DNA of 32,000 nt from Kiritimatiella glycovorans (GTDB lineage: Bacteria; Verrucomicrobiota; Kiritimatiellia; Kiritimatiellales; Kiritimatiellaceae): the NCBI RefSeq assembly GCF_001017655.1, contig NZ_CP010904.1:2250001-2282000 (forward strand), in the 5' to 3' direction. Shown one piece after another: positions 3,688 through 17,833 of the stretch. Position numbers and translations under genes: made by a program. Below the pieces are notes generated by a model that had not been told where the DNA came from, searched no databases, and saw nothing but the letters and a program-made list of their open reading frames with translations. Numbering within the stretch: position 1 is the stretch's first letter; every line of letters starts with the position of its first letter.

Positions 3688-3752
3688 CTTTCCCGCCCCT
3701 GCCTTCACGTTTTTACCCGCCCCGGGCGTCCCCGGTACGGCGCGATCTCTCC

Positions 3753-3793
3753 GCCTTCGGCGCTCCGAGTACGCGTACGCGTACGAGTACGAA
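3753..3793. repeat. Intergenic repeat, copy 1 (GCCTTCGGCGCTCCGAGTACG followed by GTACGN hexamer periodicity)
   Basis: The exact 21-mer GCCTTCGGCGCTCCGAGTACG recurs at 16147-16167. The following GTACGCGTACGAGTACGAA tract parallels 16168-16196. It contains the GCGCC-TTC-GGCGC hairpin and the palindrome GTACGCGTAC. Confidence 0.6.
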
Positions 3794-3833
3794 AACGGCG
3801 GACGGTCTTCTGCTGTCCAGCAGAACCGCCGAC

Positions 3834-3891: not shown

Positions 3892-4854
3892 TCAACTCGC
3901 TCTGCGGCGCAGAATCGCGAGTCCGGCGCAGGACATGATCAGCAGGCCGATCGTGGCCGGTTCAGGGATGACGGTCGTTTCGTCGCTGATGCTGTCGTAA
4001 CTGTACGTCAAACCGCTTCCGGCATTGTCGACGAACAGACCGTCGTCGATCCATCCCTGCACGGCGTTGGTGGCATCGCCGCCGAACACGATCTTCGATC
4101 CCAGTTCATCGAAGAAAATGCCTTCCGTCGCGGTAGGTCCGGAATAGAAGTTCAGGGCATTGCTCGAAGTAAAATACAGCTCCCCGCCGAGCAGATTGAC
4201 CTTGGCCTCTCCGCTGACGACGCCGAAATCCCACTGGCCCAGCGATCCCGTGCCCGCCAGACTGTTGGAATAAACATTCACATGTACCGTCGCGTCAATT
4301 GCTTCAGGGGTCCCGAGATTGTCGGTGCCCATGAAAAACTTTCCGCGATACTCCCCTCCGTTCATCACATTGAGGGTGAATCCGTTGTTGGTATTGGCCG
4401 CCGATGCGGCATAGAACGGATAATTCCCCAGGCCGCCTCCCTGCCAAGACGATCCGGATCCCGTGATCGTCAGCGTAGCCGAAGAATTTTTCAGCCCGTT
4501 GAGCGTCACCGCCCGTGTCTGCCCTAAGGCGGCATTAACCACCGCGCCGTTGGTCACGATGATCGTGGTATCGCGCCAGTCCTGAACGCCGGCGGGCGCG
4601 AAATTCGACGAGATCAGCATGTCCGAGTTGCGGATATTGATCCCGCCCGGAGCCGCGTTGGTAGGGTCGGCGGCGATTACATACGCCCCGCCCTCAATCA
4701 CCGCGTTGCTCTGCAGCGGCAACGTGTCGTTCTCCCAGTTCAGCGGGTTGTTCCAGCGATTATCACCGGCGTCGTTGTCCCAGTGATTCTCCGCAGCCTG
4801 AACCGTCAGCGCAGCCGCCGCCAGAACAAGCATCATAATACTCAGTCTCTTCAT
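3892..4854 (-). CDS. PEP-CTERM-anchored secreted protein (320 aa)
   Basis: Signal peptide MKRLSIMMLVLAAAALTVQAAE; N-terminal W-rich module HWDNDAGDNRWNNPLNWEND. The C-terminus VIPEPATIGLLIMSCAGLAILRRRAS is the PEP motif plus a TM helix plus an Arg cluster, i.e. a PEP-CTERM sorting signal. Strong RBS GGAGGAGG upstream of the ATG. Confidence 0.88.
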   Translation of the reverse strand: MKRLSIMMLVLAAAALTVQAAENHWDNDAGDNRWNNPLNWENDTLPLQSNAVIEGGAYVIAADPTNAAPGGINIRNSDMLISSNFAPAGVQDWRDTTIIVTNGAVVNAALGQTRAVTLNGLKNSSATLTITGSGSSWQGGGLGNYPFYAASAANTNNGFTLNVMNGGEYRGKFFMGTDNLGTPEAIDATVHVNVYSNSLAGTGSLGQWDFGVVSGEAKVNLLGGELYFTSSNALNFYSGPTATEGIFFDELGSKIVFGGDATNAVQGWIDDGLFVDNAGSGLTYSYDSISDETTVIPEPATIGLLIMSCAGLAILRRRAS

Positions 4855-4997
4855 GCCTCCTCCTCTGTTTAATGCACTCGATTGCCTTGTAAGACTACAC
4901 CCACGCGGCCGTCAAGTTTTTTTGTTCAGGAATATCAAGGAACACGATGGCGGCAGCGCCGCGATCCCGTTCGCCGCAGATCCGCGCAGCGGAAAAA

Positions 4998-5049
4998 GTT
5001 CGTAGTAGGCCCGCAGGTCCGCGCAGCGGAGCGAGGGCCGTTATCTTAA
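4998..5049 (+). repeat. REP-like element, left arm of a palindromic pair split by IS copy 1
   Basis: GTTCGTAGTAGGCCCGCAGG (4998-5017) is the perfect reverse complement of 7058-7077. It contains the TCCGC-GCA-GCGGA mini-hairpin. Confidence 0.7.
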
Positions 5050-7029
5050 CCCGTCTTTCCCCGTTCGGCGGCCCAAACGTCTTTTTTCGGGGGTGTGACC
5101 TCCGTTTCGTCCTTTGTTTTCAAGGGGTCACGTTCCAAAAGGGGCTGTGGGGCAGACCTTGCCGGTTGACGACTTGATTTTCTGTGAAAAAATCGGGTTG
5201 TGTATTTGAAGTGCCACAGGCGACGCAAAGACGGCAAAGAGCACCGCTACTGGAGCATCGTTGAAAGTGTGCGGACCCGGCGCGGCGTCATGAAGCGTCC
5301 GCTGCTCTATCTGGGCGAACTCAACGACAGCCAGAAGGCTCAATGGTGCTCGGCACTCGACGTGCTGGATGAATCGACCGATTCGGTTCGACAGATAAGC
5401 CTGTTCCCGGAAGACCGCACGCCGCCGCCGGAGGTGTCCCATCCCGTTCGGATCCGGCTTTCCCGGCTGAGCTTGCATCATCCGCGTCAGTGGGGCGGAT
5501 GCTGGCTGGCCATGGAGTTGTGGAACGAGCTGGATCTGGACCGTTTCTGGAGCCCCCGTCTTCCCGCGAGCCGCAAGGGCACCGGCTGGCTCCACGTGCT
5601 CAAAACGCTGGTGACCTATCGTCTGCTCGATCCGGGCAGCGAGTGGCGGCTGCACCGCGACTGGTTTAAGGCCAGTGCCATGGCGGACCTGCTCGGCGAA
5701 GATGAGTCCATCGCGGCCAAAAACACGCTCTACCGCTGTCTCGATAAACTCGGTGAACACAAAGCCGATCTGTTTTCGTTTCTAAAGACACAGTGGCGCC
5801 TGTTGTTCGACGCTTCCTACGAGGTGCTGCTTTATGACCTGACCAGCACCTATTTTGAATGCGACGTGCCCGAACGCGAAGGGCTGCGCAAGTTCGGCTA
5901 CAGTCGGGACAAGCGATCCGACTGCGTGCAGGTGGTCATTGCGCTGATCGTCACGCCCGAGGGCTTTCCGGTCGCCTACGAGGTGATGCCCGGGAACACC
6001 TCGGATAAAACGACCCTGCCGGACTTCCTGCGCAGGATCGAGGCGCAGTACGGGAAGATGAACCGGCTCTGGATCATGGACCGGGGCATCCCGACCGAGG
6101 ACGCGCTCGAACAGATGCGAGCAGAAGGCGCGAGCTATCTGGTGGGCACGCCGCGCGGGCGGCTCAGCAAGCTCGAGGACCAGCTCTTCGGTCAACCGTG
6201 GAGGCAGGTGCAGGAGCAGATCGAGGTCAAGCTGGCCCGCGACGGGGAGGATCTTTACGTCCTCACCCGCAGCGGAAGTCGCTGCGATAAAGAGCGCTCC
6301 ATGCGACAGCGCAAACTCAAGAAGCTCTGGAAGCGCCTGCATCAACTGGGGGGCATGAAAAACCTCAAGCGCGACGAACTTTTGCTGAAACTGGGTGCCG
6401 CCAAACAGGAAGCGGGCAAAGCCTGGGGTCTGGTGGACCTCCGCCTTCCCCAACCCCGCGAGGCCGTTACGCCGGAGAGCTTTCACTTCCGGCTGAACCG
6501 CAAAAAACTGCGTAAAGCCCGTCGAGGTGAAGGCACCTACCTGTTGCGCACCAATCTGGCGGCCGAACAGCCCGAAGAGCTGTGGAAGCAATACATGGTC
6601 CTGAACGAGGTCGAGCAGGCCTTCAAGGAGCTGAAGAATGATCTGGATATCCGCCCGGTGTATCACCAGAAGGATGAGCGGATCGAAGCGCACATCTTCG
6701 TGTCATTTTTGAGCTACGCTCTGCAAGTCACGCTGAAACAGCGGGCCAAAGCCAGGGCCCCGGGCTTGACCCCCCGCGCCATCCTGGAAAAGTTCAAAGC
6801 CGTGCAGATGATCGATGTGCACCTGCCCACGACCGACGGGCGCACCCTGATCCTGCCGCGCTACACGCAACCGGAGAAAGACCTTCAGCTTCTGCTGCAC
6901 CAGCTCAACCTGACGCTTCCGGAACAACCACCCCCTCGGCTTGAAGAGCTGAAGAAAAAATGTGGGGCAGACCTTTGAACTGAAATCGAAGAAAAAAGGC
7001 GTTTTCGCCGCCGAACAGGGAAAGACGGG
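5050..7029 (+). mobile_element. IS1634-like (IS4 superfamily) insertion sequence, copy 1, 1980 bp
   Basis: Identical, in every stretch compared and in the 592-aa ORF translation, to 13702..15681. Terminal inverted repeats: CCCGTCTTTCCCCGTTCGGCGGCC (5050-5073) versus the reverse complement of 7006-7029, CCCGTCTTTCCCTGTTCGGCGGCG (22/24). Flanked by the direct repeat TTAA (5046-5049 and 7030-7033). Confidence 0.9.
5200..6978 (+). CDS. DDE transposase, IS1634-like / IS4 superfamily (592 aa)
   Basis: The N-terminus ...KDGKEHRYWSIVESVRTRRG...LLYLGEL and the core LLYDLTSTYFECD...GYSRDKRSDCVQVVIALIVTPEGFPVAYEVMPGNTSDKTT...WIMDRGI...EVEQAFKELKNDLDIRPVYHQKDERIEAHIFVSFLSY match the pattern I associate with IS1634-family DDE transposases. 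GTG start as given in the track. Confidence 0.88.
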   Translation: MYLKCHRRRKDGKEHRYWSIVESVRTRRGVMKRPLLYLGELNDSQKAQWCSALDVLDESTDSVRQISLFPEDRTPPPEVSHPVRIRLSRLSLHHPRQWGGCWLAMELWNELDLDRFWSPRLPASRKGTGWLHVLKTLVTYRLLDPGSEWRLHRDWFKASAMADLLGEDESIAAKNTLYRCLDKLGEHKADLFSFLKTQWRLLFDASYEVLLYDLTSTYFECDVPEREGLRKFGYSRDKRSDCVQVVIALIVTPEGFPVAYEVMPGNTSDKTTLPDFLRRIEAQYGKMNRLWIMDRGIPTEDALEQMRAEGASYLVGTPRGRLSKLEDQLFGQPWRQVQEQIEVKLARDGEDLYVLTRSGSRCDKERSMRQRKLKKLWKRLHQLGGMKNLKRDELLLKLGAAKQEAGKAWGLVDLRLPQPREAVTPESFHFRLNRKKLRKARRGEGTYLLRTNLAAEQPEELWKQYMVLNEVEQAFKELKNDLDIRPVYHQKDERIEAHIFVSFLSYALQVTLKQRAKARAPGLTPRAILEKFKAVQMIDVHLPTTDGRTLILPRYTQPEKDLQLLLHQLNLTLPEQPPPRLEELKKKCGADL

Positions 7030-7077
7030 TTAAACGCGCCTGGCCCTGCTTCGCAGGCCTGCGGGCCTACTACGAAC
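7030..7077 (-). repeat. REP-like element, right arm of the palindromic pair split by IS copy 1
   Basis: The reverse complement reads GTTCGTAGTAGGCCCGCAGGCCTGCGAAGCAGGGCCAGGCGCGTTTAA. It contains the GCCTGC-GAA-GCAGGC hairpin. Confidence 0.7.
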
Positions 7078-7084
7078 GATATCA

Positions 7085-7124
7085 CGCGCCTTGGCCCTTC
7101 GGGCCTTACGGCGCTACTACGAAC
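7085..7124 (-). repeat. REP-like element (second unit, tandem to 7030-7077)
   Basis: The reverse complement reads GTTCGTAGTAGCGCCGTAAGGCCCGAAGGGCCAAGGCGCG: the same core plus a GGCCC-GAA-GGGCC hairpin and a terminal GGCGCG. Confidence 0.65.
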
Positions 7125-7141
7125 TCTTCCTCACGCTATAC

Positions 7142-7174
7142 AAAAAAAGCGGCAGACCGTCGCCGGTCTGCCGC
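7142..7174 (-). terminator. Rho-independent terminator of PEP-CTERM gene A
   Basis: Minus strand GCGGCAGACCG-GCGA-CGGTCTGCCGC followed by T7. Located 30 nt downstream of the stop at 7204. Confidence 0.8.
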
Positions 7175-7203
7175 TTCCGTGCGATCCATCTTCGCGCGAA
7201 CCC

Positions 7204-8127
7204 TTACCGCAGACGCCGCCGCACGATCATCAGACCGCCCATCGCCGCGCCGAGCAGGCCGATGGTCGCCGGTTCGGGAATGACGGTCGTGAGGTCGCTG
7301 TCCGCATCGTAGCTGACCTGCAGATCGCCGACGGTCGACGAGAGCGCGCCGTCGCTGATCCAGCCGTTGACCTCGGTCACCCGGTTGCTATCAAGCGTGA
7401 TCTTCGAATCCGGCGCCGTGAAGATGATCCCGTCGTCGCCGTTGATGGTCAGGTTGGAATAATCGTACCCATCCAGCCCCGCCAGCCGGTTATTGAAATT
7501 CAGCGTACCGCCGTTGAGGTAGATCGCCGTTTCGTTATCGGTACCCGACTTCATGATTATGTCGAAATAAACATCGAATAATCCGCCGGTGTTCACGGAA
7601 ACCACATGGCTGTAGGTGCTGTAATCCGATCCCATTCCGCTCCCTTTGAACAAAAAGTCACCGTTTACATCGATATTCACAAACACCTGTTTTCCCCAGA
7701 AACTGTTGCCCGGGTTGATCCAGTCCCCGTTCACGGTGATATCCACGGTCTTACCCGCGGCACCGGCGGGTTCGAGCCGGTTTCCGCCTGCGTCGAACGT
7801 ACCGTCGACGATAAGCGAACCTTCATAGAATTTGGTTACGTTATTCTCGTTTATTGTGAACGTCGACCCGGACGTTATCCGCAGCGAGCTATCGTCCGTG
7901 AGTTTGAATCCGCCGACACTGAAATTGCCGTCGGCGGTGGTAATGCTGGTCTCGTTCGTCAACCGGTAGTTGTCATCGGTCGCAAACGAGGTGCCCGCCG
8001 GCGTCCAGTTTCCCGCGTCGCCGAAATTCGTTGACGTTCCGCCCTGCCACAGATAATCCGTCGCCTGCGCGGTCATCGCCAGACCCGCCACGCCGATCAG
8101 CACGGCCATCACTCTCATCGCCTTCAT
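7204..8127 (-). CDS. PEP-CTERM-anchored secreted protein, paralogue A (307 aa)
   Basis: Signal peptide MKAMRVMAVLIGVAGLAMTAQA; N-terminal module YLWQGGTSTNFGDAGNWTPAG; C-terminus VIPEPATIGLLGAAMGGLMIVRRRLR (PEP-CTERM). RBS GGAAGGAGGA. Confidence 0.9.
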   Translation of the reverse strand: MKAMRVMAVLIGVAGLAMTAQATDYLWQGGTSTNFGDAGNWTPAGTSFATDDNYRLTNETSITTADGNFSVGGFKLTDDSSLRITSGSTFTINENNVTKFYEGSLIVDGTFDAGGNRLEPAGAAGKTVDITVNGDWINPGNSFWGKQVFVNIDVNGDFLFKGSGMGSDYSTYSHVVSVNTGGLFDVYFDIIMKSGTDNETAIYLNGGTLNFNNRLAGLDGYDYSNLTINGDDGIIFTAPDSKITLDSNRVTEVNGWISDGALSSTVGDLQVSYDADSDLTTVIPEPATIGLLGAAMGGLMIVRRRLR

Positions 8128-8192
8128 CGTTCCTCCTTCCGTTTAATTCGCACCCTCGACTTTATGCAAACTGCCATCGTTTGCACTCGATA

Positions 8193-8221
8193 TACTAACA
8201 TCTATATTTGAGGGGGTGCAA
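8193..8221 (-). promoter_or_regulatory. Candidate sigma70-type promoter of PEP-CTERM gene A
   Basis: Minus strand AAAAAAAAC-TTGCAC-(17-18 nt)-TTAGTAT. The -35 box plus upstream A-tract is conserved at 15755-15768 and, as TTGAC, at 4911-4923 upstream of the 320-aa PEP-CTERM gene. The -10 match is weak. Confidence 0.4.
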
Positions 8222-8239
8222 GTTTTTTTTCGGGAATAT

Positions 8240-8269
8240 TTGATCGAGAGTTGCAGACCGACGTACAAT
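8240..8269 (+). promoter_or_regulatory. Candidate sigma70-type promoter reading toward the large secreted protein gene
   Basis: TTGATC-N18-TACAAT. The paralogous position 15778-15807 reads GTGATC-N18-TAAAAT. Confidence 0.45.
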
Positions 8270-8433
8270 TCCTGCGGGGAACGGGATTTCACCAGAGAGC
8301 GGTTGAACTCAGCGGCGGCACTCCGTCCGCTGAAGGGACTGGTTCGAACCTGTTTTTTTCTCGCCAGGCCGCCAGGGTCGCCAGGGATTGTCTTCATTCG
8401 GGGAACACGATTTCTTTCCGCGCAGCGGAAAAA

Positions 8434-8485
8434 GCTCGTAGTAGGCCCGCAGGTCCGCGCAGCGGGGCCAGGGCCGTTATCTCAA
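8434..8485 (+). repeat. REP-like element (single arm) in the leader of the large ORF
   Basis: GCTCGTAGTAGGCCCGCAGGTCCGCGCAGCGGGGCCAGGGCCGTTATCTCAA is near-identical to 4998-5049. It is translated spuriously in track ORFs 8251.. and 8216.. Confidence 0.7.
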
Positions 8486-8541
8486 CCCGTACCGAATGCG
8501 AGCGATTGCATTTAACATTGTCCGCGTGCTGCGCAGCCCGC

Positions 8542-11500
8542 ATGATGACGGGAATGAGGGGTCAGAAAACATGGGTCGATGCGGGCCGAATGGGGCTTCT
8601 CGCGGGGGCGCTGATCGCCCTGCTCTTTTCGACGCCTCCGGCCCGCGCGACTGAGACCAACACCTGGCTGGGCGGCGACGGAACATGGAGCGATCCGGCG
8701 CCGTGGAGCCTGGGTGTCCCGTCGGCCACCCAGCATGTGGAAATCGCCGCGGGCGTAACCGTCACCTGCGCACAGCCCGCCAACCACGCAGGCTCCGTCC
8801 GCCTCCGCGGCGGTGCGTCCCTGCACATCGACTCGGACACACTCGACCTCTCCCCCGGCACCGGCGTCCGGAACCTCTTCGTCGGCGAGGGAACTTCAAC
8901 CCTTTACATCGCCCACGGAGCTACGCTGGACAGCCAGGGTCTGGACCTCGATCCGGGCGTCGATCTCACGGCACGCATCGAGGGGCTGTGGGACGCATTC
9001 GGCGGAAGTCCGATCATCAGCACCGGAACCCTGCGCATGATCATCGGCGCCGACGGCATCTTCCGTTCACGCAACTACACCTCCCGCTGGGGCGATTTCC
9101 CCCACTCCTCCCACCTTCACACGGAAACCGATATCTTCGGTCAATTCATCTCCCGGATCGGTGCCATCGGTCATCCCGATGCCGATCATCAGTCGATCAC
9201 CTTCAATCTCTACCGCGGCGGTACGATGGATACCTGGGACCGCGGATTGACCCTCCGCGAATCTTCAACCAGCGAGATCACGCTCAACCTCTACGGCGGA
9301 CAGCTCCGGGTGCGGGGCGACACGGGAGTCGAGTTCAACGCCGAAGACGGCACGCCCGCCGGGGGGATCCTCTTTCACTCCACCGACGCGGAGATGCAGA
9401 TCGACGGCGGCGATTTCACTGCCGCGGTCACGGACGCGATAACCGCCGGCGCGCTGCGCGCGGGCCCCGCACTCGACGATTACAAGCCGGAGGCCTCTTT
9501 TGACGGAACCCGCACCCGTGTCTACGCCGTGCGCGATTCCGACGTCGACGGCGACGGTCTTCCCGACCGCATGGAAACGGGCACGGGAACCTACCGCGGT
9601 CCTTCAGATCCGGGCACCGATGCCGACCGCGCCGACTCCGACGGCGACGGGGTCGATGACTACGCCGAGATCCACCACTTCCTGACCGACCCCGCTGATC
9701 CCGACGACCATCCGGCGGATACGGGGGCCGCCTCGCCGGACCGGCGCGTCCTCGAGATCCCCCTCGAGGCATACGTCGTCGCTTCGACCGAATCGACGGA
9801 ATCGCTCAAATCCGATTCCGCGGCACAGGACTGGCCGGAGGCGGGCGAACTTTATGCACGCGAGACCTTTAATTTCCGCAAGGCGGACTACGACACCTTT
9901 CATGAAATGGCCGCCGACTACCCCGATTTCCCCTTTTCGCAGGAAGAGGCCTGTTACGGCGACAAGCGCGCGCGCCTCTTCCTCCGCTTCGACCTCTCCG
10001 CGCTTTCCACCGGCGACCTCGCGCACATCGAATCGGCCTGCCTCCGCCTGCACCAGCGGGGTCGGCGCCACGACCTCACCCGCTACCACGTCGAAGACAT
10101 CGAGATCGCCGCGGCCGGGATACGGATCGCGCGCGTCGAGGCCCCGTGGGCCGACAGTCCCGGCCAATACCCCGTCTTCACCCAGGAGCGGACGACGTGG
10201 CAGACCATCGGCGGGTATTATGAGTTCGGCTGGGGACTCGATTCCGCGGGATTCTACTCGGGCGATACAGGCGCACACTGGGTCATGGACGACCGGATCG
10301 AGATGACCGGATGGGTTGCGGACTGGATCCGCCGTCCGGCAGAGAATCACGGGCTCGTCGTCGGGGTAGAGGACGGCCGCTACGCCGGCGTCTCGTGTTC
10401 CATCGCGGACGACCCGGCCACCCCGGAAAATGAAGCGCCCGCGCTGATCGTGACCTTTGAGACGCAGGAGGACGCCGGATCGCCGGAGCTGGCTCTCCGC
10501 CGCACGCGTGATCCGTCCACCGGCGAGCGCCGGACCACGGTATCGCTGTGCACTGAGTGCCGCCTGAACACGCATGAAGCGATCCTCTACTACTCGAACC
10601 ATCTTCGCCGCTGGACGCCGATCGACTACGACAGTCACAGCGCGTGCTTTCCCTGGTGGACCTCCGATCGCGTCCCGGACTTCAGGGCCTCCACGGAAGA
10701 GCTTCCCGGAGGCAGAAGACATACCTCGTGGCGGCTTCCGGGTTCGATGAACCCGGGATTCTTCCGGGTTCAATCGAGACCGATCGCTGAGTCGGCCGAT
10801 GGCGAGGTAACCGGCGCATTGCCGGTCGGGGCTCTGCACAGCCCCTACGCCTCCGAACGGGTGGTCGACCTCCAGATCAAACGCGGCTCGCATATCCGCG
10901 AACTTCCGAAAGGCATCCCGGATGCCGAAGTGGATCTTCCCTACCTGCACCGCCGCGCGGATCACGGACCTGAGTTTCTTTTCAAGGACCACCTCTACTT
11001 CGTGCGTTCTCTCGGCGGATACGGGGGGCAGTACGAGCTTAATAGCGGAGAGCTGCATACCAACGACATCGCCTACCTGCAGGACGGCGCATTTTACTTT
11101 GATCCCGAAGAGGTGAAAGAGCGGTTCGACATCTGGTTCCCGGTCCGCGACGAGTTGGGCGTCGACCAGCCCGACGTACAGGACTTCCTGCGCTACACGA
11201 TCGTGATCGATACCATCCCGTGGGATTTCTCGTCGCTGCCGACCCCGAACGCATCGTTTGGCAACCGCGGTGCGCCCGAGGACATGGACGCCTGGTACCT
11301 ATTCGTCCACTGGCTGTGCCAGACCCTGCTTGACCGTTACGAGCCGGAATTCGTGCGCGGACTGCGGTTCAGGATCGGCAGTGAAGCGCGCTACACGCTG
11401 TCGGAAGGCGACGAAGCCGCAGGACGCAACCGGGAGCAGAGTTACCTGCGCTACTACGACACCACGGCCGCCGCGATCCGCGATGTGCTTCCCGAAGCCC

Positions 11501-12669
11501 GGATCGGACCCTTCAACCAGATGGCCGCGGCCGAGCTGTTTACGCGCTATCCGACCGCAGGGGCGCCCGACGAGCTGGGCACGATCTGGAGCGTGGCCGA
11601 ACACTGCGCGGGGCGGGGACGTTTTCCGCAGAACTTCGCCTGGCTCGAAGGTCGGGCGGGCGCCGAAGCGCGCCGGGCGCCGTACGATTTTGCCGGGGGA
11701 TCGTGGTACAAGGAGAATTCCTCGGTCGCCGAACTGGAACGCGACTTCCGGTCACTCCGAAACAAGCTGATGGATATCGACGCCGACCGTTACCGCGATA
11801 TCACGCTGGAGATGATGGAGAGCGACTTCCGCTCGCTCTACCGCGAGGCGGACAGCTGGGAGACCGGGGCGTACGGAGCGGCGTACCGATTCCGTTCCGC
11901 CCTCCGCGGCCTGCGTCACGGCATCTGCGGCGAGTGGGGCGCGCCGGAGTTCGAGGAGATCGGTGCCGTGAACGAATACGGCGACACCCCGTCTCATACC
12001 GTGCTCGGGAGCGCCCTCACCGGACACGGCTTTGTGCGCATCGTGATGACGCACATGGAGGACGGATATGGCTACATCCTTCCCGTAGAACGCACCGGTA
12101 CGGCGGGCGGGGTCGAGGCCCTGATGGCGTACTTCCCCGCGGAGGACCGGCTGCTGATCGGGGTCGCCGCCTCCGAGTTCGATGAAAAGCCGCCCGCGCC
12201 CGATACCGGCTGGGCGATTCCCGAAGAGCACCTGCGCCGGGAATCCGTCTCCATACGGATTCCCGCTCTCCTGATCGAAGACCCCGCGGGCACCGTATCG
12301 ATCCGGTCCACGGCGCTGACCTCGAACACCGCGGTCTACCGCTATCTGCGTCATAAGCTCGCCTCCTGGGGACTGCTGAGCGATTCGATGACGGAGACGC
12401 CGCAGGCCGTCGGGGGCTGGTACCAGATGATGGGCGGCAAGGGACGCGCCACCCGCCGCGAGGATGAGGAAGTCAATGCGCGGATCAACGAGGCCTATGA
12501 TCACGTAGACGCCACGCTGATCGAAACCGTCCACACTATGAACCGTGATCTGCTGATGCTGGAGGACGACACGAACAGCGCGTTCATCCGCGACGGCGCC
12601 AGTTACCGGCTGAACGTCACCGTCGAATTCCCCGGCATGCATGTGTTCGAGATCGACTGGGCGCGTTAA
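8542..12669 (+). CDS. Large multidomain secreted protein (about 1376 aa). Order of parts: W-rich N-terminal beta-strand module, thrombospondin-type-3-like Asp-rich Ca-binding repeats, DNRLRE-like domain, FFRV-terminated module, then a roughly 620-aa C-terminal region that may be a glycoside-hydrolase-like TIM barrel
   Basis: Track ORF 8251..12669; its first 97 codons cross the promoter and the REP, so I start at ATG 8542 (alternatives 8554, 8590). Signal peptide ...RMGLLAGALIALLFSTPPARA/TE; TNTWLGGDGTWSDPAPWSLGVP; DSDVDGDGLPDRMETGTG...DSDGDGVDDYAEIHHFLTDPADPDD (about 9535-9720); KRARLFLRFDLSAL...ACLRLH...MTGWVADWIRRPAENHGLVVGVEDG (about 9900-10380). The C-terminal segments ...LRFRIGSEARY... 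and ...DITLEMMESDF... are vaguely clan-A-like, which is a weak inference. No PEP-CTERM tail. Confidence 0.8.
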   Translation: MMTGMRGQKTWVDAGRMGLLAGALIALLFSTPPARATETNTWLGGDGTWSDPAPWSLGVPSATQHVEIAAGVTVTCAQPANHAGSVRLRGGASLHIDSDTLDLSPGTGVRNLFVGEGTSTLYIAHGATLDSQGLDLDPGVDLTARIEGLWDAFGGSPIISTGTLRMIIGADGIFRSRNYTSRWGDFPHSSHLHTETDIFGQFISRIGAIGHPDADHQSITFNLYRGGTMDTWDRGLTLRESSTSEITLNLYGGQLRVRGDTGVEFNAEDGTPAGGILFHSTDAEMQIDGGDFTAAVTDAITAGALRAGPALDDYKPEASFDGTRTRVYAVRDSDVDGDGLPDRMETGTGTYRGPSDPGTDADRADSDGDGVDDYAEIHHFLTDPADPDDHPADTGAASPDRRVLEIPLEAYVVASTESTESLKSDSAAQDWPEAGELYARETFNFRKADYDTFHEMAADYPDFPFSQEEACYGDKRARLFLRFDLSALSTGDLAHIESACLRLHQRGRRHDLTRYHVEDIEIAAAGIRIARVEAPWADSPGQYPVFTQERTTWQTIGGYYEFGWGLDSAGFYSGDTGAHWVMDDRIEMTGWVADWIRRPAENHGLVVGVEDGRYAGVSCSIADDPATPENEAPALIVTFETQEDAGSPELALRRTRDPSTGERRTTVSLCTECRLNTHEAILYYSNHLRRWTPIDYDSHSACFPWWTSDRVPDFRASTEELPGGRRHTSWRLPGSMNPGFFRVQSRPIAESADGEVTGALPVGALHSPYASERVVDLQIKRGSHIRELPKGIPDAEVDLPYLHRRADHGPEFLFKDHLYFVRSLGGYGGQYELNSGELHTNDIAYLQDGAFYFDPEEVKERFDIWFPVRDELGVDQPDVQDFLRYTIVIDTIPWDFSSLPTPNASFGNRGAPEDMDAWYLFVHWLCQTLLDRYEPEFVRGLRFRIGSEARYTLSEGDEAAGRNREQSYLRYYDTTAAAIRDVLPEARIGPFNQMAAAELFTRYPTAGAPDELGTIWSVAEHCAGRGRFPQNFAWLEGRAGAEARRAPYDFAGGSWYKENSSVAELERDFRSLRNKLMDIDADRYRDITLEMMESDFRSLYREADSWETGAYGAAYRFRSALRGLRHGICGEWGAPEFEEIGAVNEYGDTPSHTVLGSALTGHGFVRIVMTHMEDGYGYILPVERTGTAGGVEALMAYFPAEDRLLIGVAASEFDEKPPAPDTGWAIPEEHLRRESVSIRIPALLIEDPAGTVSIRSTALTSNTAVYRYLRHKLASWGLLSDSMTETPQAVGGWYQMMGGKGRATRREDEEVNARINEAYDHVDATLIETVHTMNRDLLMLEDDTNSAFIRDGASYRLNVTVEFPGMHVFEIDWAR

Positions 12670-12677
12670 GAAAGAAG

Positions 12678-12691
12678 GTTCGTAGTAGCGC
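12678..12691 (+). repeat. REP-like core only (GTTCGTAGTAGCGC) at the boundary of duplication copy B
   Basis: Same core as 4998, 8434 and, inverted, 7067-7077 and 7114-7124. It abuts the first duplicated base, 12689. Confidence 0.55.
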
Positions 12692-12696
12692 TATAC

Positions 12697-12729
12697 AAAA
12701 AAAGCGGCAGACCGTCGCCGGTCTGCCGC
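12697..12729 (-). terminator. Rho-independent terminator of PEP-CTERM gene B; may also stop the convergent large ORF
   Basis: Identical to 7142-7174. It lies 28 nt after the stop of the plus-strand large ORF, but the plus-strand side lacks a T-run. Confidence 0.75.
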
Positions 12730-12758
12730 TTCCGTGCGATCCATCTTCGCGCGAACCC

Positions 12759-13682
12759 TTACCGCAGACGCCGCCGCACGATCATCAGACCGCCCATCGC
12801 CGCGCCGAGCAGGCCGATGGTCGCCGGTTCGGGAATGACGGTCGTGAGGTCGCTGTCCGCATCGTAGCTGACCTGCAGATCGCCGACGGTCGACGAGAGC
12901 GCGCCGTCGCTGATCCAGCCGTTGACCTCGGTCACCCGGTTGCTATCAAGCGTGATCTTCGAATCCGGCGCCGTGAAGATGATCCCGTCGTCGCCGTTGA
13001 TGGTCAGGTTGGAATAATCGTACCCATCCAGCCCCGCCAGCCGGTTATTGAAATTCAGCGTACCGCCGTTGAGGTAGATCGCCGTTTCGTTATCGGTACC
13101 CGACTTCATGATTATGTCGAAATAAACATCGAATAATCCGCCGGTGTTCACGGAAACCACATGGCTGTAGGTGCTGTAATCCGATCCCATTCCGCTCCCT
13201 TTGAACAAAAAGTCACCGTTTACATCGATATTCACAAACACCTGTTTTCCCCAGAAACTGTTGCCCGGGTTGATCCAGTCCCCGTTCACGGTGATATCCA
13301 CGGTCTTACCCGCGGCACCGATGGGTTCGAGCCGGTTTCCGCCTGCGTCGAACGTACCGTCGACGATAAGCGAACCTTCATAGAATTTGGTTACGTTATT
13401 CTCGTTTATTGTGAACGTCGACCCGGACGTTATCCGCAGCGAGCTATCGTCCGTGAGTTCGAATCCGCCGACACTGAAATTGCCGTCGGCGGTGGTAATA
13501 CTGGTCTGGTTCGTCAACCGATAATTATCATCGGTGGCGAACGAGGTGCCCGCCGGTGTCCAGTTTCCCGCGTCGCCGAAATTCGTCGACGTTCCGCCCT
13601 GCCACAGATAATTCGTCGCCTGCGCGGTCATCGCCAGACCCGCCACGCCGATCAGCACGGCCATCACTCTCATCGCCTTCAT
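12759..13682 (-). CDS. PEP-CTERM-anchored secreted protein, paralogue B (307 aa)
   Basis: Differs from paralogue A only at D24N, E59Q, K75E and A120I. Same signal peptide and the same PEP-CTERM tail. RBS GAAGGAGAGGA is retained, but IS copy 2 begins 19 nt upstream of the ATG. Confidence 0.88.
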   Translation of the reverse strand: MKAMRVMAVLIGVAGLAMTAQATNYLWQGGTSTNFGDAGNWTPAGTSFATDDNYRLTNQTSITTADGNFSVGGFELTDDSSLRITSGSTFTINENNVTKFYEGSLIVDGTFDAGGNRLEPIGAAGKTVDITVNGDWINPGNSFWGKQVFVNIDVNGDFLFKGSGMGSDYSTYSHVVSVNTGGLFDVYFDIIMKSGTDNETAIYLNGGTLNFNNRLAGLDGYDYSNLTINGDDGIIFTAPDSKITLDSNRVTEVNGWISDGALSSTVGDLQVSYDADSDLTTVIPEPATIGLLGAAMGGLMIVRRRLR

Positions 13683-13701
13683 CGTCCTCTCCTTCGGTTA
13701 G

Positions 13702-15681
13702 CCCGTCTTTCCCCGTTCGGCGGCCCAAACGTCTTTTTTCGGGGGTGTGACCTCCGTTTCGTCCTTTGTTTTCAAGGGGTCACGTTCCAAAAGGGGCTGT
13801 GGGGCAGACCTTGCCGGTTGACGACTTGATTTTCTGTGAAAAAATCGGGTTGTGTATTTGAAGTGCCACAGGCGACGCAAAGACGGCAAAGAGCACCGCT
13901 ACTGGAGCATCGTTGAAAGTGTGCGGACCCGGCGCGGCGTCATGAAGCGTCCGCTGCTCTATCTGGGCGAACTCAACGACAGCCAGAAGGCTCAATGGTG
14001 CTCGGCACTCGACGTGCTGGATGAATCGACCGATTCGGTTCGACAGATAAGCCTGTTCCCGGAAGACCGCACGCCGCCGCCGGAGGTGTCCCATCCCGTT
14101 CGGATCCGGCTTTCCCGGCTGAGCTTGCATCATCCGCGTCAGTGGGGCGGATGCTGGCTGGCCATGGAGTTGTGGAACGAGCTGGATCTGGACCGTTTCT
14201 GGAGCCCCCGTCTTCCCGCGAGCCGCAAGGGCACCGGCTGGCTCCACGTGCTCAAAACGCTGGTGACCTATCGTCTGCTCGATCCGGGCAGCGAGTGGCG
14301 GCTGCACCGCGACTGGTTTAAGGCCAGTGCCATGGCGGACCTGCTCGGCGAAGATGAGTCCATCGCGGCCAAAAACACGCTCTACCGCTGTCTCGATAAA
14401 CTCGGTGAACACAAAGCCGATCTGTTTTCGTTTCTAAAGACACAGTGGCGCCTGTTGTTCGACGCTTCCTACGAGGTGCTGCTTTATGACCTGACCAGCA
14501 CCTATTTTGAATGCGACGTGCCCGAACGCGAAGGGCTGCGCAAGTTCGGCTACAGTCGGGACAAGCGATCCGACTGCGTGCAGGTGGTCATTGCGCTGAT
14601 CGTCACGCCCGAGGGCTTTCCGGTCGCCTACGAGGTGATGCCCGGGAACACCTCGGATAAAACGACCCTGCCGGACTTCCTGCGCAGGATCGAGGCGCAG
14701 TACGGGAAGATGAACCGGCTCTGGATCATGGACCGGGGCATCCCGACCGAGGACGCGCTCGAACAGATGCGAGCAGAAGGCGCGAGCTATCTGGTGGGCA
14801 CGCCGCGCGGGCGGCTCAGCAAGCTCGAGGACCAGCTCTTCGGTCAACCGTGGAGGCAGGTGCAGGAGCAGATCGAGGTCAAGCTGGCCCGCGACGGGGA
14901 GGATCTTTACGTCCTCACCCGCAGCGGAAGTCGCTGCGATAAAGAGCGCTCCATGCGACAGCGCAAACTCAAGAAGCTCTGGAAGCGCCTGCATCAACTG
15001 GGGGGCATGAAAAACCTCAAGCGCGACGAACTTTTGCTGAAACTGGGTGCCGCCAAACAGGAAGCGGGCAAAGCCTGGGGTCTGGTGGACCTCCGCCTTC
15101 CCCAACCCCGCGAGGCCGTTACGCCGGAGAGCTTTCACTTCCGGCTGAACCGCAAAAAACTGCGTAAAGCCCGTCGAGGTGAAGGCACCTACCTGTTGCG
15201 CACCAATCTGGCGGCCGAACAGCCCGAAGAGCTGTGGAAGCAATACATGGTCCTGAACGAGGTCGAGCAGGCCTTCAAGGAGCTGAAGAATGATCTGGAT
15301 ATCCGCCCGGTGTATCACCAGAAGGATGAGCGGATCGAAGCGCACATCTTCGTGTCATTTTTGAGCTACGCTCTGCAAGTCACGCTGAAACAGCGGGCCA
15401 AAGCCAGGGCCCCGGGCTTGACCCCCCGCGCCATCCTGGAAAAGTTCAAAGCCGTGCAGATGATCGATGTGCACCTGCCCACGACCGACGGGCGCACCCT
15501 GATCCTGCCGCGCTACACGCAACCGGAGAAAGACCTTCAGCTTCTGCTGCACCAGCTCAACCTGACGCTTCCGGAACAACCACCCCCTCGGCTTGAAGAG
15601 CTGAAGAAAAAATGTGGGGCAGACCTTTGAACTGAAATCGAAGAAAAAAGGCGTTTTCGCCGCCGAACAGGGAAAGACGGG
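13702..15681 (+). mobile_element. IS1634-like insertion sequence, copy 2, 1980 bp
   Basis: Same sequence and same IRs as copy 1 (offset 8652). Flanked by the direct repeat TTAG (13698-13701 and 15682-15685). Confidence 0.9.
13852..15630 (+). CDS. DDE transposase, IS1634-like (592 aa), identical to 5200..6978
   Basis: Identical translation in the ORF track. Confidence 0.88.
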   Translation: MYLKCHRRRKDGKEHRYWSIVESVRTRRGVMKRPLLYLGELNDSQKAQWCSALDVLDESTDSVRQISLFPEDRTPPPEVSHPVRIRLSRLSLHHPRQWGGCWLAMELWNELDLDRFWSPRLPASRKGTGWLHVLKTLVTYRLLDPGSEWRLHRDWFKASAMADLLGEDESIAAKNTLYRCLDKLGEHKADLFSFLKTQWRLLFDASYEVLLYDLTSTYFECDVPEREGLRKFGYSRDKRSDCVQVVIALIVTPEGFPVAYEVMPGNTSDKTTLPDFLRRIEAQYGKMNRLWIMDRGIPTEDALEQMRAEGASYLVGTPRGRLSKLEDQLFGQPWRQVQEQIEVKLARDGEDLYVLTRSGSRCDKERSMRQRKLKKLWKRLHQLGGMKNLKRDELLLKLGAAKQEAGKAWGLVDLRLPQPREAVTPESFHFRLNRKKLRKARRGEGTYLLRTNLAAEQPEELWKQYMVLNEVEQAFKELKNDLDIRPVYHQKDERIEAHIFVSFLSYALQVTLKQRAKARAPGLTPRAILEKFKAVQMIDVHLPTTDGRTLILPRYTQPEKDLQLLLHQLNLTLPEQPPPRLEELKKKCGADL

Positions 15682-15960
15682 TTAGGCTCTTTACGGCTCT
15701 TCATGCAAACCGCCATCGTTTGCATATGATGCACTTACATCTATATTTGACCGGGTGCAAGTTTTTTTCGGGAATATGTGATCGAGACTTACAGGCCGAC
15801 GTAAAATCCCTGTGGGGATCGGGATTTCACCAGAGAGCGGTTGAACCCAGCGGCGGCACTCCATCCGCTGAAGGGATTGGTCGAACCTGTTTTTCTCTCG
15901 CCAAGCCGCCAAGGCCGCCAGGGAATGTCTTCCTTCGAGGGAGCACGATGTCTTTGCCTG
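15682..15960. promoter_or_regulatory. Divergent promoter / leader cassette (long form, copy B'), separated from PEP-CTERM gene B by IS copy 2
   Basis: Homologous to 8128-8420. Contents: TGCAAAC-N7-GTTTGCA (15704-15724); GTGCAA plus T7 (15755-15768); GTGATC-N18-TAAAAT (15778-15807); CAGCGG-N11-CCGCTG (15848-15870); CGCCAAG/CGCCAAG/CGCCAGG (15899-15922); GAGGGAGCACGATG (RBS plus ATG at 15948). Confidence 0.6.
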
Positions 15961-16127: not shown

Positions 16128-16201
16128 ACAGGGGGAGTGGGATCGCGCCTTCGGCGCTCCGAGTACGAGTACGCGTGCGAGTAAGAGTACGAATTATGTT
16201 C
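16094..16201. repeat. 108-nt inverted-repeat element (24-bp arms with 1 mismatch, 60-nt structured spacer); a bidirectional terminator, a MITE-like element or a structured RNA
   Basis: GAACATAATTCGTGCTCTTACTCG (16094-16117) versus the reverse complement of 16178-16201 (CGAGTAAGAGTACGAATTATGTTC). The spacer carries the GCGCC-TTC-GGCGC hairpin and the 21-mer shared with 3753-3773. The arms have visibly lower GC than their surroundings. Confidence 0.6.
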
Positions 16202-16225: not shown

Positions 16226-16597
16226 TCATGGTGAATCCCATGCTCTCCCCACGCGGGGGGCGTCGTTCCACAAACCCTCGAGGTCGTAGTATTCGCGCAT
16301 GTCGCGGCTGAACAGGTGCACCAGCACGTCCTGGTAATCCACGACCACCCACCCGCTCTCCGGCTGGCCGGCGGAGCGGATGCCGCCGCCGGCACGGCGT
16401 TTGAGGGCGGTCACGATTTCATCCTGAAGGGCCTTCAGATGCGGAACGCCGGTGCCGCTGGCGATGATGAAATAATCCAGGACATCGGAGAGGCCGCGCA
16501 GGTCGAGAACGGTGACGTGTTCGGCCTTTTTATCCTCCAGAATCGCGCAAATCTCGCCGACGTAACCGGGGTGCGTCTGCTGCGTGTCTCCGCTCAT
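16226..16597 (-). CDS. rsfS: Ribosome silencing factor RsfS
   Basis: 123 aa. ...VLDLRGLSDVLDYFIIASGTGVPHLKALQDEI...GWVVVDYQDVLVHLFSRDMREYYDLEGLW is the classic RsfS/iojap pattern. ATGA overlap with nadD, the usual nadD-rsfS pairing. Confidence 0.9.
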   Translation of the reverse strand: MSGDTQQTHPGYVGEICAILEDKKAEHVTVLDLRGLSDVLDYFIIASGTGVPHLKALQDEIVTALKRRAGGGIRSAGQPESGWVVVDYQDVLVHLFSRDMREYYDLEGLWNDAPRVGRAWDSP

Positions 16598-17220
16598 GAA
16601 TCTGCTCTCCCTCGCTCATACAGATGATGTTCCGCGACGTAATCCGCCACGACCGGCGGCACGAGGAATCGAATCGACTGTCCCTCCGCCGCGCGGGTCC
16701 GCACCTCGGTCGACGAGATGCCGATCCGGTGCGATTCGAACACCCCGCGCATAACCCGCCGCTTCCATGGCTCTTCGAGCTGTACTTCGCCGCATTCGGC
16801 CTCCGCACGGCGGGCGATGATCAGGGTGCATCGCTCAAGCAGATCGCGGACCGCTTTCCACTTATGCAGCTCGGGAAGGCTGTCTCCGCCCACCAGGAAG
16901 AAAAGCTGGGCCTCCGGATATTGATCCCGCATTGCCGTCAGGGTGTCGATGCTGTAGGAGACGCCGGCGCGGTTGATCTCCACATCCGACACTTCAAAAG
17001 CGGGGTGTCCGTCGACAGCGAGGCGAACCATGTCCAGACGCCGTCGGGGTCCGGGTTCGTCCCCGATCGATTTATGAGGCGGGGCATGCGCCGGGATAAA
17101 GATCATCCGGTCCAGCTCGAAGCGTTCCAGGGCATCCTGGGCGATGATGAGGTGTCCGAGGTGGGGAGGATTGAAGGTGCCGCCGAAGAGTCCGATTCGC
17201 TGGACATGTGTGCCTGTCAT
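16594..17220 (-). CDS. nadD: Nicotinate-nucleotide adenylyltransferase
   Basis: 208 aa. IGLFGGTFNPPHLGHL (the (H/T)xGH nucleotidyltransferase motif), ...FIPAHAPPHK..., ISSTEVR near the C-terminus. Confidence 0.9.
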   Translation of the reverse strand: MTGTHVQRIGLFGGTFNPPHLGHLIIAQDALERFELDRMIFIPAHAPPHKSIGDEPGPRRRLDMVRLAVDGHPAFEVSDVEINRAGVSYSIDTLTAMRDQYPEAQLFFLVGGDSLPELHKWKAVRDLLERCTLIIARRAEAECGEVQLEEPWKRRVMRGVFESHRIGISSTEVRTRAAEGQSIRFLVPPVVADYVAEHHLYERGRADS

Positions 17221-17248: not shown

Positions 17249-17833
17249 TCAGAAAATGCTGCGCCAGACCCTGATCACGTCGCCGGCCTCGATCATGGGA
17301 TCGCGCCCCGGATTCTTCTCGAGTTTCTTCGCATTGTAGAAATAGGTCTCGCCACCTCGGGTAATCTGGATTTTCCGTTCGTTGGCGTACTCGGTATAGC
17401 CGCCTGCGGCCGCAATGGCCTGGAGCAGCGTGGTGCCTTTGGTGATCTGGTACTGTCCCGGACTTTTCACTTCGCCACGCACATAATAGCTCTTGGCGTA
17501 CATCATGACGTGGACGGTGACATCGCGGTAGATATCGTTGTCGATATACGCCCGCTCGATCTCGTCTTCAAGTTCCGCCGTACTCTTCCCGGCGGCCTCG
17601 ATGGAATCGAGATACATCAGGTTGATTCGGCCGGACTCATCGATGGTCTCTTCGATCACGCGTTCGCCTTCCGGAATGCCCCTGAGCACGACATTGATGG
17701 GATCCAGCGGCTTGAGCCGGTAGGTTCCCACGTCACGTGAACTCTCGTCCCCGGACGACTGCGTATAGGTCAGACATCCCGCCGCCGCCAGCAATACGAG
17801 CAACCACAATCCTGCGCCAACCCAACTTTTCAT
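17249..17833 (-). CDS. Polysaccharide export lipoprotein, Wza/EpsE-like (Poly_export plus SLBB)
   Basis: I prefer the ATG at 17833 (RBS GAGAGGTGG) over the TTG at 17848 in the track. Lipobox-like LLAAAGC; YRLKPLDPINV...; ...GEVKSPGQYQITKGTTLLQAIAAAGGYTEYA...I.I.R is typical of Wza-family N-terminal domains. Confidence 0.8.
   Translation of the reverse strand: MKSWVGAGLWLLVLLAAAGCLTYTQSSGDESSRDVGTYRLKPLDPINVVLRGIPEGERVIEETIDESGRINLMYLDSIEAAGKSTAELEDEIERAYIDNDIYRDVTVHVMMYAKSYYVRGEVKSPGQYQITKGTTLLQAIAAAGGYTEYANERKIQITRGGETYFYNAKKLEKNPGRDPMIEAGDVIRVWRSIF

What the first reader, a model, noticed from the sequence alone, without database searches (positions are those of the whole stretch)
5050..15681. 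Two identical IS copies in direct orientation bracket a 6.7-kb cassette whose own ends are near-identical PEP-CTERM genes (nested direct repeats)
The layout is IS (1980 bp), PEP-CTERM A, large secreted protein, PEP-CTERM B, IS (1980 bp). Both IS copies are on the plus strand and both PEP-CTERM genes are on the minus strand. This gives two nested pairs of long direct repeats: 1980 bp at 100 percent identity, and about 1 kb at 98.7 percent or better. Each IS has its own 4-bp target duplication (TTAA for copy 1, TTAG for copy 2), so the two arrived independently rather than as one composite transposon. Both targets fit YTAR. The structure is poised for RecA-mediated deletion, circular excision or tandem amplification of the large secreted protein gene. 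Zero divergence between the IS copies implies very recent activity.
Basis: partly seen in the sequence, partly recalled or inferred. Interest (0 to 1): 0.7.

Follow-up and report, generated by a model that had tools for sequence, protein, structure and literature searches.

The report
Two fresh IS copies around surface-protein genes
Two identical copies of an active jumping gene (an IS1634-family insertion sequence) landed separately in non-coding DNA next to cell-surface protein genes of Kiritimatiella glycovorans, which is ordinary mobile-element biology apart from this element's unusually strict 4-base YTAR landing site.

Summary
Two 1980-bp IS copies (5050-7029 and 13702-15681, + strand) are 100% identical. 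Each has its own 4-bp duplication, TTAA and TTAG. They bracket two 307-aa PEP-CTERM genes (4 aa differences) and a 1359-1375-aa orphan secreted protein. The source is Kiritimatiella glycovorans L21-Fru-AB, a PacBio plus Illumina genome with 75 transposase genes.

The transposase is IS1634 family (310 bits, cutoff 100). At least 4 identical protein copies exist in the genome.

In 65 related elements (59-86% aa identity), 47 carry perfect 4-bp duplications and 46 of those are YTAR. The TSD reading is therefore real and a property of the clade. It differs from the 5-6-bp AT-rich duplications described for the family.

One correction: the repeats are interleaved, not nested. The PEP-CTERM duplication continues beyond IS2 (8160-8417 matches 15699-15955 at 88%). 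IS2 sits inside the B copy, 15 nt upstream of its ATG, and probably cuts B off from its promoter. IS1 sits in the apical loop of a 96-nt palindrome. A 632-bp stretch of complete identity between A and B points to past gene conversion.

Independent insertion is supported and composite arrival is rejected. The predicted deletion or amplification could not be tested. This is an ordinary finding of low interest.

The parts
5050..7029 (+). IS copy 1, 1980 bp. IRL 5050-5088, IRR 6991-7029. Promoter-like site at 5166-5193.
5200..6978 (+). Transposase, 592 aa, GTG start, IS1634 family. Candidate DDE residues are D213, D294 and E496, placed by eye in the LLYDLTS, IMDRGI and ERIEAHIF motifs. The YREK motif is incomplete.
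   Evidence: NF033559 at 310 bits against a cutoff of 100; PF01609; NCBI's own name for it; motif positions
5046..5049 (.). TSD of copy 1 (TTAA), left. The right copy is at 7030-7033.
4998..7077 (.). Long palindrome split by IS1. Arms are 4998-5049 and 7030-7077. With the IS removed it folds as a 96-nt hairpin with TTAA in the apical loop.
   Evidence: I3; dG -77.9 kcal/mol, z -9.0
13702..15681 (+). IS copy 2, identical to copy 1. Transposase at 13852-15630.
13698..13701 (.). TSD of copy 2 (TTAG), left. The right copy is at 15682-15685.
7204..8127 (-). PEP-CTERM gene A (307 aa). Intrinsic terminator at 7145-7178.
   Evidence: TIGR02595 at 23.6 bits against a cutoff of 16
12759..13682 (-). PEP-CTERM gene B (307 aa, 4 aa different from A). 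Terminator at 12700-12733. Its ATG is 15 nt from the TSD of IS2.
7134..8417 (.). Duplicated segment, copy A: terminator, gene and a 290-bp upstream region.
12689..13701 (.). Duplicated segment, copy B, part 1. It is interrupted by IS2.
15686..15955 (.). Duplicated segment, copy B, part 2. This is the upstream region displaced by IS2, 88% identical to 8147-8417.
8542..12669 (+). Large orphan secreted protein, L21SP4_01932. NCBI places the start at 8590, giving 1359 aa. It has a signal peptide, TSP3-like Asp-rich repeats and a weak GH39-like stretch.
3892..4854 (-). Third, distant PEP-CTERM paralogue C. IS1 lies about 192 bp upstream of its ATG.
8417..8490 (.). A 95%-identical copy of the left half of the IS1-site palindrome, next to the end of dupA.
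   Evidence: D4

Best explanation
An active IS1634-family insertion sequence of Kiritimatiella glycovorans made two separate simple insertions into rare YTAR tetranucleotides in the non-coding DNA of a PEP-CTERM surface-protein cluster. The element is 1980 bp, has about 39-bp inverted repeats with CCCGTCTT termini, and encodes one 592-aa DDE transposase.

Its transposase makes 4-bp staggered cuts at YTAR, so repair produces 4-bp duplications (TTAA and TTAG). IS1 landed in the apical loop of a REP-like palindrome between PEP-CTERM genes A and C. IS2 landed in the 5' leader of PEP-CTERM B, 15 nt upstream of the ATG.

The A/B duplication is older than both insertions. Its upstream regions are 12% diverged, while the IS copies show 0% divergence. 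The duplication has since been partly homogenised by gene conversion.

What is shown: the boundaries, the TSDs, the family assignment, the target rule across the clade, and the interruption of a pre-existing duplicated sequence.

What is inferred: recent timing; that B is uncoupled from its native promoter (no outward sigma-70-like promoter was found at the IS left end); and that the 1980-bp direct repeats are a substrate for future deletion or amplification of the 6.7-kb interior.
For: - The two copies are 100% identical, and each has its own TSD.
- The IS1634 HMM scores 310 bits against a cutoff of 100, while IS5 models score 16-18 bits against cutoffs of 110-275. NCBI names the protein 'IS1634 family transposase' and lists 4 accessions for the identical protein. 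Two of them, AKJ65165 and AKJ65169, are four genes apart, as in this window.
- In 80 related loci the termini are CCCG(A/T)CTT. Of 65 elements with both ends found, 47 have perfect 4-bp TSDs: CTAG 25, TTAG 10, CTAA 8, TTAA 3, GTAG 1. The logo is a strict Y-T-A-R with no flank preference.
- A 35%-identical Bradyrhizobium element also has a CTAA TSD. A 28%-identical Geobacillus element has CCCGAGTT termini and a 5-bp ATTTT TSD.
- The reconstructed empty site of IS2 is collinear with paralogue A, which has a single TTAA at that position. The reconstructed empty site of IS1 is a hairpin with a z-score of -9.
- YTAR occurs only 27 times in 32 kb and is 4 times denser in intergenic DNA.
- The A/B differences are confined to codons 24-121, and 632 bp are identical. 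The probability of that is about 1e-10 at the rate seen in the rest of the CDS.
- The genome was assembled from PacBio libraries of more than 10 kb plus Illumina, and carries 75 transposase genes.
Against: - The rest of the source genome could not be read (it was also absent from the hits). The total copy number and the other TSDs in this strain are therefore unknown.
- Identity between the copies could in principle be maintained by gene conversion rather than recent transposition.
- No empty site was found in any other genome or metagenome, so the pre-insertion state is reconstructed, not observed.
- Silencing of gene B is inferred only from position and a crude sigma-70 scan.
Confidence: 0.88

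Rival explanations
1. The whole IS-cassette-IS unit arrived as a composite transposon carrying the PEP-CTERM genes and the large secreted protein.
For: Two identical direct IS copies flank a 6.7-kb segment that holds an orphan gene with no relatives.
Against: - The outer flanks are TTAA and TTAG, so they are not a shared TSD. Each IS has its own matched TSD on both sides.
- The sequence right of IS2 continues the homology with paralogue A's upstream region.
- The flanks of IS1 form one palindrome.
- Both insertions therefore interrupt sequence that was already contiguous.
- GC content is unremarkable.
Confidence: 0.03
2. One IS copy, or the A/B duplication, is an assembly artefact.
For: Exact 2-kb repeats are classic sources of assembly error. 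No reads were available here.
Against: - The two copies have different unique flanks and different TSDs.
- A and B differ at 15 positions, and their upstream regions differ by 12%.
- The genome was finished with PacBio libraries of more than 10 kb plus Illumina.
- Four separate protein accessions exist for the transposase.
Confidence: 0.03
3. The IS copies are old and kept identical by gene conversion, so zero divergence does not mean recent transposition.
For: Gene conversion clearly operates at this locus. There is a 632-bp identical tract between A and B, next to regions that are 4% and 12% diverged.
Against: - Conversion would have to cover all 1980 bp and stop exactly at the ends, in at least 4 copies.
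- The TSDs are still perfect.
- The closest complete element found in another genome, among the five compared, is only 79% identical in DNA, so a recent burst within this lineage is the simpler reading.
Confidence: 0.06

Closest known systems
IS1634 family (IS4 superfamily; IS1634, IS1549, ISGka5)
   Same: - The transposase passes the family HMM.
- The length is 1980 bp, within the family range of 1500-2000 bp, with a single ORF.
- The termini CCCGTCTT fit the family consensus C-----YT and resemble the Geobacillus terminus CCCGAGTT.
- The second D and the E of the DDE triad are about 200 aa apart, and the YREK motif is incomplete.
   Different: - The family is described as making 5-6-bp AT-rich duplications (ISGka5 makes 6 bp; Geobacillus pGYMC5201 has 5-bp ATTTT). 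IS1634 and IS1549 make long variable ones.
- This element and its clade make 4-bp duplications at strict YTAR.
- It shares only about 28% aa identity with the Geobacillus, Alicyclobacillus and Rhodococcus members.
IS5 (IS5 family, IS5 group)
   Same: A 4-bp duplication at 5'-YTAR-3'. A bias towards non-coding DNA that is partly explained by where YTAR occurs (PMC5009759; here).
   Different: The transposase is not IS5 family (16-18 bits against cutoffs of 110-275). The element is about 0.8 kb longer than IS5 (IS5 is about 1.2 kb, from my own knowledge). The resemblance lies in target choice only.
Composite (compound) transposons such as Tn10 and Tn5
   Same: Two copies of one IS flank a passenger segment. 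In principle the outer ends could mobilise the 10.6-kb unit.
   Different: The copies are direct rather than inverted. There is no shared outer TSD, and each IS has its own. The passenger is resident chromosomal DNA.

Membership tests
IS1634 family | DDE transposase scoring above the curated family cutoff | tested here: met
   NF033559 scores 310.2 bits against a cutoff of 100, covering model positions 24-476 of 483. PF01609 scores 55 bits.
IS1634 family | Element of 1.5-2.0 kb with one ORF and terminal IRs fitting C-----YT | tested here: met
   The element is 1980 bp. The IRs match at 35 of 39 positions, and the terminus is CCCGTCTT. The family table is in PMC2266710.
IS1634 family | Incomplete YREK motif and a long spacer between the second D and the E | tested here: met
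   Read by eye from the translation: PVYHQKDERIEAHIF has K where R is expected, a 4-residue spacing, and no downstream K. Candidate residues D294 and E496 are about 200 aa apart. This was not a formal alignment.
IS1634 family | Target duplication of 5-6 bp, AT-rich (typical for the family but not used to define it; IS1634 and IS1549 themselves deviate) | tested here: not met
   The duplications here are 4-bp YTAR, as in 46 of 47 perfect TSDs of related elements. I therefore file it as a divergent clade of the family, on the transposase and the termini.
IS5 family | Transposase matching IS5-family models | tested here: not met
   NF033580 scores 17.8 bits (cutoff 110) and NF033578 scores 16.1 bits (cutoff 275).
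IS5 family | 4-bp YTAR target duplication (IS5 group) | tested here: met
   The IS5 motif is documented in PMC5009759.
Composite transposon (arrival as a unit) | One shared TSD at the outer ends, and none at the inner junctions | tested here: not met
   The outer flanks are TTAA and TTAG. Each IS has a matched TSD on both sides.
PEP-CTERM / exosortase substrates | C-terminal PEP-CTERM sorting domain | tested here: met
   TIGR02595 scores 23.6 bits (cutoff 16) for A and B and 21.3 bits for C. The VIPEPATIGLL...RRR tail is visible.
PEP-CTERM / exosortase substrates | Exosortase encoded in the same genome | not testable with these tools
Wza-like, Wzc-like and BBP2 porin genes lie at 17.2-21.8 kb.

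The most novel reading that the evidence does not exclude
This element belongs to a large clade inside the IS1634 family that spans several phyla: Kiritimatiellota, Verrucomicrobiota, Pseudomonadota, Acidobacteriota and Planctomycetota. The clade has exchanged the family's 5-6-bp AT-rich duplications for a strict YTAR tetranucleotide target with a 4-bp stagger. That is a convergence on IS5 behaviour by an unrelated DDE transposase, and I could not find it described in the searchable literature. The probability below covers the property being both real and undescribed. ISfinder could not be consulted and may already record it.
Probability: 0.35. Interest if true: 0.4.

Novelty: new member of a known kind. 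Interest (0 to 1): 0.22.

Why it matters
Locally, this is a clean example of IS-driven remodelling of a surface-protein and EPS locus in the only cultured Kiritimatiella. One PEP-CTERM paralogue is probably uncoupled from its promoter. A 6.7-kb segment carrying an orphan secreted protein is now bracketed by 2-kb perfect direct repeats, so deletion or amplification variants are likely in culture stocks. That matters to anyone doing genetics or comparative genomics on this strain.

More generally, the related loci give a well-populated natural data set. It shows that a deep branch of the IS1634 family uses a 4-bp YTAR target. This could help IS annotation, since TSD length is used to delimit elements. 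It also offers a comparison for how IS4-superfamily transposases set their cutting stagger. Neither point is surprising to a specialist.

Tried and rejected
- **Reaching the rest of the source genome.** Exact-protein look-ups for the transposase, PEP-CTERM A, P0022 and P0001 all returned nothing. The genome-contig scan returned no K. glycovorans locus. Copy number is therefore known only as at least 4, from accession numbers.
- **Empty-site search.** 24-nt reconstructed joins for both insertions gave 0 hits in metagenome contigs. The large protein and PEP-CTERM A have essentially no close relatives outside this genome, so no orthologous empty site exists in the data.
- **Segmental duplication of an IS plus PEP-CTERM unit.** Rejected. 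IS1 lies 3' of gene A, while IS2 lies 5' of gene B.
- **Preference for palindrome centres.** A symmetric-complementarity test on 47 reconstructed sites showed none (mean 7.3 pairs of 30 against a null of 8.0). The test is crude and sensitive to offsets. Insertion of IS1 into a hairpin loop is best explained by the loop holding one of the few YTAR sites.
- **IS remnants elsewhere in the window.** None found.
- **Known RNA families in the conserved 290-bp leader of A and B.** None found.
- **Function of the large protein.** There is only a sub-threshold GH39-like stretch, and no PDB relative by sequence. I ran no further search on an orphan without an alignment.
- **Genomic-island composition signal.** None found.
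- **Supplement of the genome paper.** Not held.
Full report
**1. Observation**

A self-BLASTN of the window gives 5046-7032 = 13698-15684 with one mismatch in 1987 bp. The exact match runs 5050-7032 = 13702-15684.

The junctions read as follows:
- Copy 1: TTAA|CCCGTCTTTCCCC...GGGAAAGACGGG|TTAA
- Copy 2: TTAG|CCCGTC...GACGGG|TTAG

The element is therefore 1980 bp. The two copies are identical and lie in direct orientation. The flanking tetranucleotide differs between copies but matches on the two sides of each copy, which is the signature of a 4-bp target-site duplication. The inverted repeats are about 39 bp (35/39 matching).

The two PEP-CTERM genes (7204-8127 and 12759-13682, - strand, 307 aa) differ at 4 residues. 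The DNA repeat 7134-8143 versus 12689-13699 is 98.4% identical. All coordinates and numbers in the finding are essentially right.

**2. Source and context**

The large ORF is 100% identical to L21SP4_01932 of Kiritimatiella glycovorans, from a 2,949,723-bp contig. That genome was finished from PacBio libraries of more than 10 kb plus Illumina MiSeq. It is reported to carry 75 transposase genes and 12 tentative genomic islands (PMC5148204).

The window also holds:
- a pectate-lyase-like beta-helix protein (772-3687);
- a third, distant PEP-CTERM paralogue C (3892-4854, - strand; 44% identity over the C-terminal 108 aa);
- rsfS-nadD (16226-17220);
- a Wza-like exporter, a Wzc-like tyrosine kinase and a BBP2 porin (17249-21750);
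- an ECF sigma and anti-sigma pair;
- ppdK.

The locus is therefore a PEP-CTERM and exopolysaccharide export neighbourhood.

**3. The IS**

The 592-aa ORF (GTG at 5200) scores 310 bits on NCBIfam's IS1634 model against a cutoff of 100. It scores far below cutoff on the IS4, IS1380, IS1182, IS5 and IS701 models. It also carries Pfam DDE_Tnp_1. NCBI itself names it an IS1634 family transposase.

The identical protein has four accessions: AKJ63709, AKJ63911, AKJ65165 and AKJ65169. The tool lists at most four. The last two are four genes apart, matching this window. The genome therefore holds at least four copies that encode an identical protein.

The family description (PMC2266710) gives elements of 1500-2000 bp, ends C-----YT, an incomplete YREK motif, a long spacer before the catalytic E, and 5-6-bp AT-rich duplications. 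This element fits on size, on ends (CCCGTCTT), on the motif (Y-HQ-K-DERI-E, no downstream K) and on the spacer (about 200 aa between the second D and the E). It does not fit on the duplication.

**4. Is the 4-bp YTAR duplication real?**

The genome-contig scan returned 80 loci with transposases 59-86% identical. They come from Kiritimatiellales, Verrucomicrobiota, Alpha- and Gammaproteobacteria, Acidobacteriota, Planctomycetota and others.

I anchored on the conserved termini CCCG(A/T)CTT and AAG(T/A)CGGG. Both ends were found in 65 loci. Of those, 47 have a perfect 4-bp duplication: CTAG 25, TTAG 10, CTAA 8, TTAA 3, GTAG 1. Most of the other 18 have YTAR on both sides differing at one base.

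Within single long-read genomes, identical-length copies carry different tetranucleotides that still match left to right. In OZ253541, for example, they are CTAA, TTAG, CTAG and GTAG. The tetranucleotide is therefore target DNA and not part of the element.

The position counts are T 48/48, A 48/48, Y 47/48 and R 48/48, with no preference in the 12 nt on either side.

A 35%-identical Bradyrhizobium plasmid element still shows CCCAACTT termini and a CTAA duplication. A 28%-identical Geobacillus plasmid element has CCCGAGTT termini but a 5-bp ATTTT duplication, which is the classical family behaviour.

The target rule is the one known for IS5 (PMC5009759), but the transposase is not IS5 family.

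**5. What the insertions interrupted**

*IS2.* Removing IS2 and one TTAG joins 13701 to 15686. The join aligns with paralogue A from 7134 to 8417. The regional identities are:
- 100% for 7134-7765;
- about 96% for 7766-8058;
- a poorly aligned 15-20 nt around the insertion point;
- about 88% for 8160-8417 versus 15699-15955.

Paralogue A has a single TTAA (8143-8146) where B has the duplicated TTAG. This serves as an internal empty-site control.

The duplicated unit is therefore about 1.28 kb (terminator, gene and a 290-bp upstream region). IS2 lies inside it, 15 nt upstream of B's ATG and just beyond its GGAGAGGA ribosome-binding site. The two repeat families are interleaved rather than nested.

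No outward-facing sigma-70-like promoter was detected at the IS left end. The only hit in the left 150 bp is the + strand site at 5166-5193, ahead of the transposase. B is therefore probably cut off from its native promoter. This is inference.

*IS1.* Removing IS1 joins 5049 to 7034. On the - strand this produces a 96-nt hairpin (dG -77.9 kcal/mol, z = -9.0 against shuffles) with TTAA in the apical loop.

The stem motif GTTCGTAGTAG occurs 5 times in the window against 0.07 expected, so this is a REP-like repeated palindrome. It is not the terminator of gene A. A and B each have their own strong terminator (15 pairs plus a T-run).

IS1 lies about 192 bp upstream of PEP-CTERM C. Both insertions thus sit 5' of a PEP-CTERM gene, with the IS left end facing the gene.

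*Target availability.* YTAR is rare in this 62% GC DNA: 27 sites in 32 kb, at 0.56 per kb in coding DNA and 2.25 per kb in intergenic DNA. Target availability plus selection against gene disruption is enough to explain intergenic landing. No adaptive story is needed. A crude test found no general preference of the clade for palindrome centres.

**6. History**

The A/B duplication predates the insertions. Its upstream regions are 12% diverged, while the IS copies are identical.

The A/B differences are confined to codons 24-121 (13 nt; 8 synonymous codons and 4 replacement codons). The remaining 632 bp are identical, including the 3' UTR. The probability of this is about 1e-10 at the rate seen in the rest of the CDS. 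That mosaic is best explained by gene conversion. Homologous recombination between the direct repeats has therefore already happened here, without crossover.

The matched TSDs show that no crossover between the two IS copies has occurred since insertion.

Two of at least four copies lying 8.65 kb apart in a 2.95-Mb genome would happen by chance with P of about 0.035 if n = 4 (my arithmetic). With more copies the probability is much higher. Local hopping is therefore possible but not established.

**7. Rivals**

- *Composite-transposon arrival* is contradicted by the junctions.
- *Assembly artefact* is unlikely, given the distinct flanks, the distinct TSDs, the divergent A/B copies and the long-read assembly.
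- *Old insertions kept identical by conversion* cannot be excluded without sister strains, but it is less economical.
- *Segmental duplication of an IS-plus-gene unit* is excluded by gene order.

**8. Comparison and verdict**

This is a new, apparently unnamed member of the IS1634 family. Among the five related elements I aligned, the best DNA identity was 79%. The best protein identity is 86-88%.

It behaves like IS5 in target choice. The arrangement around the PEP-CTERM genes is ordinary IS biology.

The only mildly novel element is the clade-wide 4-bp YTAR rule inside a family described as making 5-6-bp AT-rich duplications. I could not find that rule in the searchable literature, and I could not check ISfinder. 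Interest is low.

Noticed in passing
window 8417-8490: A 74-nt copy (95% identical) of the left half of the IS1-site palindrome lies at the outer end of duplicated segment A. Its homology to 4981-5054 runs through TCAA and then 'CCCGT', which are the first 5 nt of the IS left end, before breaking off. The right half of the palindrome is absent, and the large orphan gene follows. This could be chance (about 1 in 1000), or a scar of an earlier IS insertion or deletion at the same hairpin loop that accompanied arrival of the 4.2-kb orphan-gene segment.
   Followed up: partly
window 3752-3797 and 16146-16191: A 46-nt direct repeat (89% identical) rich in GTACG(C/A) hexamers brackets the whole 12.4-kb PEP-CTERM and IS region. 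One copy lies just after the beta-helix gene and the other just before rsfS. It may be another REP-like family or the boundary of an island.
   Followed up: no
window 4998, 7067, 7114, 8434, 12678: The motif GTTCGTAGTAG occurs 5 times against 0.07 expected. It forms the outer stems of GC-rich palindromes in the intergenic DNA of this cluster, which suggests a REP-like repeat family in K. glycovorans.
   Followed up: partly
window 7134-7765 versus 12689-13320: There are 632 bp of perfect identity between PEP-CTERM A and B, next to regions that are 4% and 12% diverged. All 13 coding differences fall in codons 24-121. This looks like a gene-conversion mosaic.
   Followed up: yes
window 8128-8417 and 15686-15955: The 290-bp region upstream of A and B is conserved at 88%. 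It carries + strand promoter-like sites (8180-8208, 8240-8269, 15719-15747) and has no Rfam match. It may be a divergent promoter or a long leader shared by the PEP-CTERM genes and their + strand neighbours.
   Followed up: partly
window 8542-12669: The large secreted protein is an orphan among 5.8 billion proteins, with only partial weak hits through TSP3-like Asp-rich repeats. It has a sub-threshold GH39/rhamnosidase-like stretch and a weak DNRLRE domain hit. Its N-terminus shares the 'W-x-GG-x-x-x-W-x-x-x-x-NW' type motif with the PEP-CTERM proteins.
   Followed up: partly
L064, L065, L067, L070, L072 (Vicinamibacterales MAGs OZ244838 and OZ253576): Five related IS copies in two genomes share the same right flank, CTAG-CAGCCCGTGG. 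This suggests repeated insertion into a genomic repeat, or an element end slightly longer than I delimited.
   Followed up: no
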